DNA from: the human T2T-CHM13v2.0 reference genome, Homo sapiens | DNA: 64,000 nt | Assembly (NCBI RefSeq): GCF_009914755.1 | Contig: NC_060943.1 | Strand: one strand, 5' to 3' | Shown: one piece after another, positions 18,721-22,849 of the stretch | How the letters are laid out: each line of letters starts with the position of its first letter | Position numbering within the stretch: position 1 is the first letter of the stretch | Notes under the pieces: model-generated | The model's input: only the letters and a program-made list of their open reading frames with translations | What the model was told of the DNA's origin: nothing | Databases searched by the model: none | Made by a program: the position numbers and the translations under genes

Positions 18721-21489
18721 TTGGGAGCCTTTTGCAGGAGACAAGGGGGAGGATTATTGCAATAGTACAGAAAGAGCACACACTATGGACCAGGCATTGT
18801 GCTAAATCCTATCTAGATTAAAGTACTATTATTATCCTCATTTTACAGATGGGTTCTACACCTTGCCTGTGGTCACAGAGCTACTAGTGACAGAGCCTGG
18901 ACTCAAAACCAGGCAGCTTAGCCACTGTATGAGAGGGAGATAGATGGCAGCCCCAGGCCAAGGCCCTGTAGGACAATGATATGACTTTGTACTTGGCTTT
19001 CAACTCTGCCCTGTCCAGGAAATGGCTCTCTGTTAGCCCCAAACCATCTTCAAAGGGCCATTACACAGCCTTGTGCTGGGGGACTCTGGGGAAAAGAAAG
19101 ACGGGGTGGTGGTAAGAGCTACTGTTAAGCGTAGGAGGTGAAGTGTGGGTGCAGGGGGAATTTGCTTCCGGAAGGGTAAATTATTAAGGACTGCAAAAAT
19201 AAAGGATGAAGCTAAAAGGGCTTGGGGAGAATGAGATATTCGGCAAACACTGATTAAGCACTATCTGTATGCCAGGGACCATTGGCTCGGCCTCTTTGTT
19301 GACCTTGTGCCTTGAGTCCCTTACTTATGAGTCCCTTCCCTTCCCTATCCCTCTACCCCAGAGGGCCCAAAGATGGCCCCAGAGAGGGGTTTCAGTTCCA
19401 CCAATGCTTCCAAGGCTCAGAGCTAAATTAAAGAATATTCTGGGCAGAAAATACAGATTATTTTAAAAGATAGATTATTAATCTGGATTGAGGCTGGTCA
19501 GAAGAGACTGAAAAAAGATGAGTCTTCATGGGGTTAGGGGCCAGAGAGCAGGGTTGTCAGCGTGGGGTTAGGGGCCAGAGAGCAGGGTTGTCAGACACTT
19601 GGCAGAGAGCTGTTGGAGCAGGCCAGCGGTGAGATCATTCGCGTGTCTTACGTCCGGATGGGCTGGAGCGCCAGGATAGACCAGAAGTACATGTAATTCA
19701 GATAGGACAAGAAGCCTTGTGGAGAGGAAGAGGGCACAGGAGATGAGACACAGAGTTCACCCACCCAATCCCAATCACAGTCCTGTCCCCAGGCCCAATT
19801 GCATGCCCTGCTCTGCATCAAACCCCATCCCCAAACCTATTCTTAAACCCATCACCAATTCCATTCCATACCCTAACCTATTCCCAAACCCATCTCTAAA
19901 CCGAAACTCACCTTCATCCCCTACACTGTCCCTAACCCATACGCAAACTCCAACCCAGTCCCATCCCCATTATCCAGCCCCATGTGCATCCCCAATCCCG
20001 CCTCCCACTTCAGTCACTTCCTATCTAGCCCTGTCCACAACCCCACCCCGTCCCAAATGCTATCCCAAATGCTATTCCTGTCTGCATCCCTGAACCCATA
20101 CCCAAAGCCAACCTCATCCTCTCCCATACCAGTCATCAGGAAGAGGAAGACACTGGCCCAGGTCAGGTAGAAGCTGAGTGCCAGCTGGTAGGTCATGCCT
20201 TCCTGCAGGTACCTGTGGGCCTGCAGCAGGTAGAACAGGATACCCAGTACGATGCTGGTTCCTGCATGAGCACAGGTGTTAGGAGGCTGAGAATCAGATA
20301 TGTAAGGACTCCTTCCCATAGTCATGTGGCTGCCTGGCTCTGGCTCATTATTTCCCCACTTTCTTTAACCTCCCAGACCCTGTACCTTTGCTCCTAAGCA
20401 TGAAGATGGGCTTCTGACCAAGTCCTGCTAGAGGACACTGAAAGGGCAAGCCTTGGGCTTTAACCAGGCAATGGTAAGTCTGTAACCACAGGTTTTGAGG
20501 CCAACAGCAGGGATCTTCCCTGCCTCCACCTCTGGACTTAGGGCAGCCATGCCATATCTCTGAGCCTCAGTTTCCTCATCTGTAGAGTGGGCACAATCAT
20601 AGGACCCATCTCCTTGGGCCGTCATGAGGAGTTACTGAGGTTGGCACATTTCCTGATACACAGCAAGCCCTTAGGGATTGGGATTGATTATTTTCATTCT
20701 ATTGGGTCTTTAATTTAGGGCTTCAGAAGCAATAGACAAGGAACTTGGTCATTCTGGATATATTGGAATGACATGAATTAAAGATAATTTGTGAATAGGA
20801 AAAGACTTTTTCCCCTGGACAGTGGAGTACTGGGTAGTTTTGTCTGATGTTATTGAAAATAATATAGAAGGTATTTTTTGTTTAATTAAAAGGAGGAATA
20901 GACAGAAATGGTTTTCTTATAGAAAAATGTTCTGTTATAGATGGTTTAAAACGAAGGTGTTTTTTATAGTTTTTAAAAAACTCATGCTTTTTTTGCGCAA
21001 TATTCTATACCTTGTACTTTATATTTAAACAATTAGGAAGAGCTACTAGATAAACTGCATAAATGCTTTTTTTTTTTTTTTTTTGAGACAGAGTCTCAAT
21101 CTGTTGCCCAGGCTGGAGTGCAGTGGCGTGATCTTGGCTCACCACAACCTCCGCCTCCCAGGTTCAAGCAATTCTCCTGCCTCAGTCTCCCAAGTAGCTG
21201 GGACTACAAGCGTGCGTCACCATGCCTGGCTAATTTTTGTATTTTTAGTAGAGATGGGGTTTCACTATGTTGGCCAGGCTGGTCTCGAACTCCTGACCTC
21301 ATGACCCACCCACCTTGGCCTCCCAAAGTGCTGGTGTGAGCCACTGCACTCGGCCAAGTACTGACATTTCTAATTCAATCCTCAGTACATTTCCATGTGG
21401 TAGCAAATTTTGTCCTGATCCTACAGATGAGAAAACTGTGGCTTGGAGAGATGAAGTAGCTTGAACAAAATCACAGAGCTGCTGCTGAG

Positions 21490-22430
21490 GATGGGACAGG
21501 ATTTGGGATGAGGTTAGAATGGGAGATAGGATTGGGTATTGGGTAGAGGTTGAAGTTTGAGTGTTAGAGGACGAGGTTGAGAGTGGTGTCAGGAATAGGT
21601 TGCAGTTGGGATGGGTTGTGGTTGAAGGTGGGTCGTAGTTGGGGTGGGTTGTGGTTGGGGGTGGGTTATGGTTAGGGGTAAGGATGGGTTGAAATGGGGT
21701 AGTTTGTGGTTGAGGATGGGTTGGAACAGGGATGGTCTGGTTGGGGGTGGGTTGGGATGGGGATGGGTTGTGGTTGGGGATGAGGATGGGGATGGGTTAT
21801 GGTTGGAAGTGGATTGTTGTGGGGATAGGTTATGGTTGGGGGTGGGTTGTGGATGGGATGGTTGTGGTTTGGGTTGGTTGTGGTTGGAGTGAATTGTGGT
21901 GGGGAAGGGTTGTGGTGGGGATGGGTGGTGGTTGGGGGTAAGTTGTGATGGGAGTGGGTTGTGGATGAGGATAGGTCATGGTTGGGGATGAAAATGGATT
22001 GGATATGGGTAAGAGGATGGAGTGGGGAATGGACTAGATTGAGTTTGGCATTGAAGTTCACAGGTGATAGAATTGGGTTGCATTTGAAACATATGTTGAG
22101 GATGGTTGGGATGCTGCAAAGTTGGTTGTTGAGATGTTTGAAGAGGTTGCGGATGGTAATGAGGATGGTTTGGTGATTGGAAAGAATGTAGAATTGGGAT
22201 GGAGTAGGGGCATGAGGGAAAGGGATGTGAATGAGTTTGAGATTTGTTGGTGATGGAGATGGGACTTGAAGTGGAGGCTGGTATTGGGGCTGGAGATAGG
22301 GTTGGGCTGGTGGTTGATGTTTTTTATGGGAATGGGTTAGAGATTTGGAAGGAGATGGGGTTGGGATTGCGGATGATGGTCAGGATGGGGATGGGATTGG
22401 AGTGTGGTGGGGATGGGATTGGGTTTCATG
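21490..22430. repeat. G/T-rich low-complexity tract (GGGTTG/GGGATG-like)
   Basis: Degenerate hexamer-like repeats with strong strand G skew. Confidence 0.7.
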
Positions 22431-22849
22431 ATTGGCACTGGAGGAGGTACTCCTCGCCTTGGTTCCTGAGGGAAGTGCCATGCCTGTCAGGATGCTGGTG
22501 ATGAAGGTGAAGAAATCCAGCATGGACGGGTTGGAGCCGGTAAAGAGGATGGTGCTTATTAGGGCTATGCAAAGGCAGAAGCTGGTGATGCTGGAGAAGA
22601 GGAGGAAGGCCCAGGAAAGGTCCAGCAAGTCTGGGGAAGGAAGATAATCAGGAACACCATGATTGGCCCAGGCTCTGAGTATGGGGACAAGGGTCACCAG
22701 TTGGTGTGGGAGTATTCTCAAAGCTCCTCCCTTGCAAATTATTTATTCTCATTTTAGGAAAATTTAAATTGGGCTCCAGAGAAGAGACATTGAGACTGAT
22801 ACTTCCAGCACTGAGGATCTACCTCTAGGTTGGTGAGGGCAGCTTCTTG

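What the first reader, a model, noticed from the sequence alone, without database searches (positions are those of the whole stretch)
19648..22630. Unannotated-looking TMEM202/claudin-like gene remnant with three exons still in frame
Seen: exons 22630-22484, 20261-20130 and 19715-19648 join without stops as xLLDLSWAFLLFSSITSFCLCIALISTILFTGSNPSMLDFFTFITSILT-GTSIVLGILFYLLQAHRYLQEGMTYQLALSFYLTWASVFLFLMT-GFLSYLNYMYFWSILALQPIRT*. This resembles TM2-TM4 of TMEM202 as recalled (LDLKVSMLSF..YYLNWCSDIFYMFAGIISLLNY). The first donor is GCATGG while the next is GTATGG, so it may be mutated. I could not find a TM1/GLW exon. Inference: a recently lost (unitary) testis-type tetraspan gene next to the KLK locus.
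Basis: partly seen in the sequence, partly recalled or inferred. Interest (0 to 1): 0.75.

Follow-up and report, generated by a model that had tools for sequence, protein, structure and literature searches.

The report
Known dead human claudin-fold gene, TMEM277P
These three exons are the intact tail of a broken human gene, already catalogued as the lost counterpart of mouse Gm36864, whose versions in other mammals are predicted to make a four-pass claudin-fold membrane protein that likely works in sperm; the human copy has lost its start and its first membrane helix.

Summary
The three minus-strand exons are real, in frame, and end at the orthologous stop. They are exons 3-5 of a five-exon gene with predicted proteins across placental mammals (mouse Gm36864, colugo, mouse lemur, dog, bats). 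It is not new: Mudge et al. 2019 (PMC6886504, Data S3) list it as human unitary pseudogene ENSG00000284711, orthologue Gm36864, disabled in "primates" by exon loss; their PhyloCSF regions map onto exons 4 and 5. RefSeq names the locus TMEM277P, but its transcripts lie on the opposite strand and share no base with the remnant. I found the missing 5' part: exon 1 (24954-24364) with its start codon replaced by a truncated Alu and one frameshift, and the last 15 of about 91 codons of the TM1 exon, with a GG donor. The GC donor is probably ancestral. The mouse protein folds like a claudin (Z 14-16); ODF4- and TMEM202-like proteins are distant relatives; there is no GLW motif. Orthologues carry N-terminal RRxS repeats, decayed in human. 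Loss most likely predates the ape radiation. Sperm function is inferred only. Already known; low interest.

The parts
19648..19715 (-). Exon 5: end of TM4 and the orthologous stop codon; intact
   Evidence: published PhyloCSF region maps to 19669-19707
20130..20261 (-). Exon 4: end of TM3, second extracellular loop, start of TM4; intact, GT donor
   Evidence: published PhyloCSF region maps to 20158-20262
22484..22630 (-). Exon 3: TM2 and start of TM3; intact, GC donor that is probably ancestral
   Evidence: junction anomalies in 7 of 53 orthologue models
22869..24116 (.). 19-bp minisatellite, 64.7 copies, in intron 2
24257..24302 (-). Surviving last 15 or so codons of exon 2 (two-cysteine loop end); donor reads GG where orthologue read-through implies GT or GC
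24303..24363 (-). 61-base stub of intron 1 ending at a deletion that removed the acceptor and about 75 codons of exon 2 (TM1 and the first strands)
   Evidence: a profile of the missing 68 residues scores at best -1.7 bits anywhere in the window
24364..24954 (-). Exon 1 remnant: Ser/Pro-rich N-terminal region with 42-bp (14-residue) repeats at 24752-24934; one frameshift near 24630-24660; GT donor intact; first 32 or so codons with the ATG absent
24955..25100 (-). Truncated Alu abutting exon 1 at the point where the start codon was lost
   Evidence: 22 of 36 matches to other Alus of the window stop at 24954-24958, while the six shown run on into the right arm
16392..30521 (+). RefSeq TMEM277P transcripts (NR_197389.1 and others): antisense to the remnant, starting head-to-head 307 bases from C19orf48P; no exon overlaps a remnant exon
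   Evidence: hub annotation; (0 nt overlap)

Best explanation
This is the unitary pseudogene TMEM277P (GENCODE ENSG00000284711), the broken human orthologue of mouse Gm36864, whose intact versions are predicted to encode a four-pass claudin-fold membrane protein that likely acts in spermatids or sperm and whose human copy likely makes no protein. Shown: a deletion removed most of exon 2 (TM1); the start codon and about 32 codons are gone at a truncated Alu; exon 1 has one frameshift; the exon 2 donor reads GG. Exons 3-5 stay open, as is common for 342 bases after a short neutral period (P about 0.26 at 0.033 substitutions per site). Inferred timing: after the split from lemurs and before the ape radiation. 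Inferred ancestral mechanism: like ODF4 and TMEM225, a sperm membrane tetraspan; its cytoplasmic N-terminus carries tandem RRxS units that would serve as protein kinase A sites, so it would couple cAMP signalling to a membrane scaffold during sperm maturation (about 40% for this part).
For: Published row with mouse Gm36864, 'primates', 'exon loss', whose coordinates fall on exons 4 and 5. 77 and 66 related proteins, the named ones all from placental mammals. Synteny: squirrel fused models also match the last exon of C19orf48P at 10323-9683; a shrew fused model carries the trypsin domain PF00089. Lesions mapped. PF00822 matched by 27 of 31 orthologues at E<=0.01. Model pLDDT 81.5, four long helices; best matches designed claudin fold Z 16.0 (rmsd 2.4, 164 aligned), TARP gamma-3 15.4, MP20 15.3, claudin-15 14.3. 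Relaxation: 5 of 49 conserved columns changed in human against a median of 1 in 24 orthologues; RR kept in 116 of 141 repeat units of 27 orthologue models, no RRx[ST] in the human remnant. Odf4 and Tmem225 knockouts give infertile males with hairpin flagella (PMC9941515, PMC10875271, passages).
Against: No call shows testis expression or any function of Gm36864; its identifiers were absent from the 12 of 15 supplementary files searched in a survey of male-tract-specific genes. The human branch for exons 3-5 (0.153) is no longer than lemur (0.193) or colugo (0.190), and pika has 7 changes at conserved columns, so the relaxation signal is modest. My lesion clock favours 0.02-0.035 substitutions per site and gives 0.055 a third of the peak likelihood, so a loss shared by all simians is not the best fit. 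Absence of monkey proteins is weak evidence: many mammals are also missing from the lists. All orthologue proteins are gene models. The mouse Pfam score (21.1 bits) is under the cut-off (26.7).
Confidence: 0.9

Rival explanations
1. Exons 3-5 still make a short membrane peptide in human, started from the in-frame methionine late in exon 3 (about 79 residues).
For: No stop or frameshift in 342 bases, acceptors intact; the published table marks the pseudogene as transcribed; human branch not elongated.
Against: An open frame is expected in 10-45% of neutral simulations for 0.055-0.019 substitutions per site; 5 of 49 conserved columns changed, including the near-terminal Trp; TM1 and most of TM2 would be missing; no named simian protein holds exon 4 (5 hits of 8 candidates).
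Confidence: 0.03
2. The ancestral protein is an auxiliary subunit of an ion channel (as TARPs, CACNG or GSG1L are), not an ODF4-like flagellar scaffold.
For: Foldseek's listed matches are all TARP-containing entries; TARPs, Cav gamma-1 and GARLH4 reach Z 14-15.
Against: Those rows tie with MP20 and claudin-15 at 8-15% identity, so they show a shared fold only; sequence relatives are ODF4- and TMEM202-like.
Confidence: 0.2
3. The gene was lost only in the human or great-ape line, with the GC donor as a disabling hit.
For: Only 2 small lesions in 969 surviving coding bases; 0.019 substitutions per site fits as well as 0.033.
Against: Curators with multi-species alignments wrote 'primates', while other rows of the table say 'apes', 'human / chimp' or 'human'; 0.007 has about an eighth of the peak likelihood; the exon 3 donor is skipped or extended in 7 of 53 non-primate-dominated models against 0 of 67 and 2 of 53 at the other junctions.
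Confidence: 0.12

Closest known systems
GENCODE unitary pseudogene ENSG00000284711 / mouse Gm36864 (ENSMUSG00000108622); RefSeq symbol TMEM277P
   Same: Same locus, strand and exons; same orthologue; exon loss as the disabling event (PMC6886504 Data S3).
   Different: The published row says only 'Uncharacterised protein' and 'exon loss'; it does not list the lost ATG, the frameshift, the GG donor, the fold or the RRxS repeats. RefSeq's TMEM277P transcripts are antisense to the remnant.
ODF4 (outer dense fiber protein 4)
   Same: An unnamed protein whose nearest Atlas cluster is ODF4 (score 0.92) aligns over 198 columns, 26% identity, E 4.7e-11, including the helix before TM1 and the C-terminal motif; NCBI names four orthologue models 'outer dense fiber protein 4' or '-like'.
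   Different: Distinct gene; the aligned protein lacks the long repeat N-terminus; a named eutherian ODF4 was not compared.
TMEM202 / TMEM225 testis tetraspans
   Different: No alignment over TM1; they keep a GLW-type motif, this family does not.
Classic claudins and the PMP22/EMP/MP20/claudin clan (PF00822)
   Same: Four-helix bundle with extracellular strands, Z 13-16.
   Different: No GLW, cysteines spaced C-x4-C, C-terminus WT/WS instead of a YV tail, long repeat N-terminus.

Membership tests
Unitary pseudogene | Disabling lesions in the human reading frame | tested here: met
   ATG loss, frameshift, TM1 deletion, GG donor
Unitary pseudogene | Intact orthologue at the syntenic place in other species | tested here: met
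   Full-length models in mouse, lemur, colugo, dog; fused models link to C19orf48 and a kallikrein-type domain; published orthology
Unitary pseudogene | No intact copy elsewhere in the human genome | tested here: inconclusive
   No second copy in the window and no named human protein; the whole genome was not searched; published as unitary
Unitary pseudogene | Introns retained (not a retrocopy) | tested here: met
   Four introns at the orthologues' junctions
PMP22/EMP/MP20/claudin clan (ancestral protein) | Profile match to PF00822 or PF13903 | tested here: met
   27 of 31 orthologues at E<=0.01, best 7.5e-7; precomputed PF00822 on 5 of 77 hits; mouse isoform under the curated cut-off; single human exons give no match
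PMP22/EMP/MP20/claudin clan (ancestral protein) | Four-helix bundle with extracellular beta strands | tested here: met
   Predicted model and structural matches
Classic tight-junction claudins | W-GLW-C-C signature in the first loop (feature recalled) | tested here: not met
   G[LF]W in 0 of 72 models; C-x4-C in 72 of 72
Classic tight-junction claudins | C-terminal YV PDZ-binding tail (feature recalled) | tested here: not met
   Ends WT 30, WS 21, other 9 of 60 models
TMEM202 orthologue or duplicate | Closer to TMEM202 than to any other family | tested here: not met
   48-67% identity to mouse Gm36864 per exon against 27% between the family profile and a TMEM202-like protein
ODF4/TMEM225-type sperm tetraspans | Expression restricted to spermatids, location in sperm | not testable with these tools
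   No expression data found

The most novel reading that the evidence does not exclude
Most placental mammals have an unstudied claudin-fold sperm membrane protein with a cytoplasmic array of up to a dozen protein kinase A sites, a cAMP-tuned relative of ODF4 and TMEM225 needed for flagellar shape or capacitation; monkeys and apes lost it, so primate sperm do without a component that mouse fertility would depend on.
Probability: 0.3. Interest if true: 0.5.

Novelty: already known. Interest (0 to 1): 0.2.

Why it matters
The pseudogene itself is catalogued, so the finding adds detail rather than a new gene: a full lesion map, the fold, the nearest relatives and the RRxS repeats give a testable function for an orphan mouse gene and a primate gene loss possibly tied to sperm biology. 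A practical point: expression values reported under 'TMEM277P' (ENSG00000180279, e.g. PMC12519442) likely measure the antisense RNA beside C19orf48P, not the remnant.

Tried and rejected
Pfam on single human exons and three upstream frames: no claudin-clan match. Search for the first 40 residues of 12 orthologues upstream of the Alu: nothing convincing. Search for a GLW exon: the family has none. Telling GC from GT at the orthologues' exon 3 donor from read-through proteins: both spell Gly, and no off-frame model crosses the donor; mammalian DNA could not be fetched, so dN/dS was not computed. Ancestral states were not obtained, so lineage changes rest on branch lengths and conserved columns. 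Rfam on 16000-31000: 0 matches. Literature: 'TMEM277' 1 paper, a table row; 'LINC01869' 1 listing, not read; 'Gm36864' 1 listing, term not in the held text; four identifiers together, same single paper; ODF4/TMEM225/TMEM202/claudin at least 3 of 4 terms, 0 papers; supplement of PMC10195156, no occurrence. Files 1 and 8 of PMC6886504 and 13-15 of PMC7436996 were not searched and may bear on annotation and expression. Earlier scan findings were not available. No complex prediction was run: no partner is proposed.

Full report
Observation. The donors read GCATGG and GTATGG. Single exons gave no claudin-clan Pfam match.

Orthologues. Exon 4 found tree shrew proteins at 73-84% identity (5 hits among 8 candidates). 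The tree shrew model then found 77 proteins among 7,995 candidates and the mouse lemur membrane domain 66 among 1,862. The named hits are placental mammals: rodents (mouse LOC102640913, called Gm36864 in two related rows), lagomorphs, colugo, carnivores, bats, ruminants, horse, dugong, tamandua. The only named primate in either list is mouse lemur. That absence is weak evidence, since many mammals are missing too. Squirrel fused models also match the last exon of C19orf48P in this window and a shrew fused model has a trypsin domain, which fits the same gene order.

Already catalogued. Supplemental Data S3 of Mudge et al. 2019 (PMC6886504; I saw main-text passages, the matching row and part 1 of 2 of that file) lists a minus-strand unitary pseudogene at GRCh38 chr19:50808145-50812707, ENSG00000284711, transcribed, orthologue Gm36864, pseudogenised in 'primates' by 'exon loss', 'Uncharacterised protein'. 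Setting the model's end on the stop codon places its two PhyloCSF regions at 19669-19707 and 20158-20262, on exons 5 and 4. RefSeq calls the locus TMEM277P, but its transcripts run on the plus strand and share 0 bases with the remnant exons; a table row in PMC12519442 ties that symbol to a different id, ENSG00000180279. That the symbol was coined for this remnant is my inference.

The missing 5' part. Orthologues place exon 1 at 24954-24364 and a scrap of exon 2 at 24302-24257. Four lesions are visible. (1) The remnant begins at about codon 33 of the lemur protein, directly against an Alu that breaks off at 24954-24958 (22 of 36 matches to other Alus stop there); the first 40 residues of 12 orthologues have no convincing match upstream. 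(2) One frameshift near 24630-24660. (3) Only 61 bases separate the exon 1 donor from the exon 2 scrap; about 75 of 91 codons, with TM1, are gone, and a profile of that part scores at best -1.7 bits in the window. (4) The exon 2 donor reads GG; orthologue models that read through it show Cys-Lys where human has Trp-Lys, which implies GT or GC in them. The GC donor of exon 3 is probably not a human lesion: 7 of 53 orthologue models with both exons carry extra residues at that junction, six starting with the read-through, against 0 of 67 and 2 of 53 at the flanking junctions.

What the protein is. 27 of 31 aligned orthologues match PF00822 at E<=0.01, the mouse isoform under the curated cut-off. 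The model of the 232-residue mouse isoform has pLDDT 81.5, four long helices and three strands, and matches a designed claudin fold (Z 16.0, rmsd 2.4, 164 aligned), TARPs, MP20 and claudin-15 (Z 14-15). A profile search of 1.84 billion representatives gave 67 hits; the distant ones are TMEM202-like (name recalled; E 5e-7) and one protein whose nearest Atlas cluster is ODF4. The family profile aligns to the latter over 198 columns (E 4.7e-11) and to the former over 139 (E 2.5e-9). No model has GLW (0 of 72), all have C-x4-C (72 of 72), and none ends in YV: clan member, not a classic claudin. The N-terminus holds 14-residue repeats; 116 of 141 units in 27 full-length models begin Arg-Arg, giving RRxS, the protein kinase A consensus (recalled), and all 27 have at least one RRx[ST]. 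The human remnant has none, and its codons at those places look like CpG decay of arginine codons. The units are tandem copies and not independent.

Function. Inferred from relatives only. Odf4 and Tmem225 knockout males are infertile with hairpin flagella (PMC9941515, PMC10875271; passages). I therefore favour a spermatid or sperm membrane scaffold regulated through its phosphorylated N-terminus (about 40%), over a channel auxiliary subunit (about 20%). No call showed expression of Gm36864; it was absent from the 12 of 15 supplementary files searched in PMC7436996.

Timing. Human differs at 5 of 49 conserved columns of exons 3-5, against a median of 1 (range 0-7) in 24 orthologues chosen as full-length models without junction anomalies. 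Against this, the human branch (0.153) is no longer than lemur (0.193) or colugo (0.190). A neutral simulation (150 runs per point, assumed indel and CpG rates, GC donor and large deletions not counted) with 2 small lesions in 969 bases gives the highest joint likelihood at 0.019-0.033 substitutions per site, a third of that at 0.055 and an eighth at 0.007. With recalled branch lengths (great-ape ancestor about 0.02, Old World monkey-ape ancestor about 0.033, simian ancestor about 0.055) and the published 'primates', a loss before apes and Old World monkeys split fits best. An open frame over exons 3-5 has probability about 0.26 at 0.033, so it needs no special explanation.

Verdict. A real and well-spotted feature, but a known unitary pseudogene. 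What is added here (lesion map, fold, relatives, RRxS repeats, strand mismatch of the symbol) was not found in the paper searches listed under Tried and rejected. Novelty: already known. Interest 0.2.

Noticed in passing
window 16085-16392: C19orf48P (minus) and the RefSeq TMEM277P RNA (plus) start head-to-head 307 bases apart, likely a bidirectional promoter; the RNA bearing the pseudogene's name is antisense to its coding remnant.
   Followed up: partly
window 9683-10323: The last exon of C19orf48P matches squirrel protein models carrying PF17687 at about 40% identity in two different frames, consistent with a second decayed gene next door.
   Followed up: no
window 22869-24116: 19-bp minisatellite of 64.7 copies in intron 2; read-through models from other mammals show only a few similar units, so it may have expanded in the primate line.
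   Followed up: no
P0005, P0001 against window 24950-24660: The tree shrew models read the N-terminal repeat region in a different frame from all other orthologues, either an assembly error or an independent frameshift.
   Followed up: no
P0057, P0060-P0062, P0064-P0066, P0069, P0079: Nine rodent and carnivore isoform models skip exon 4 in frame, which would give a protein with fewer membrane helices.
   Followed up: no
P0115 (unnamed, 221 aa): A more distant relative (E 1.8e-13) with the helix before TM1 and the C-x4-C loop; may be a non-placental orthologue.
   Followed up: no
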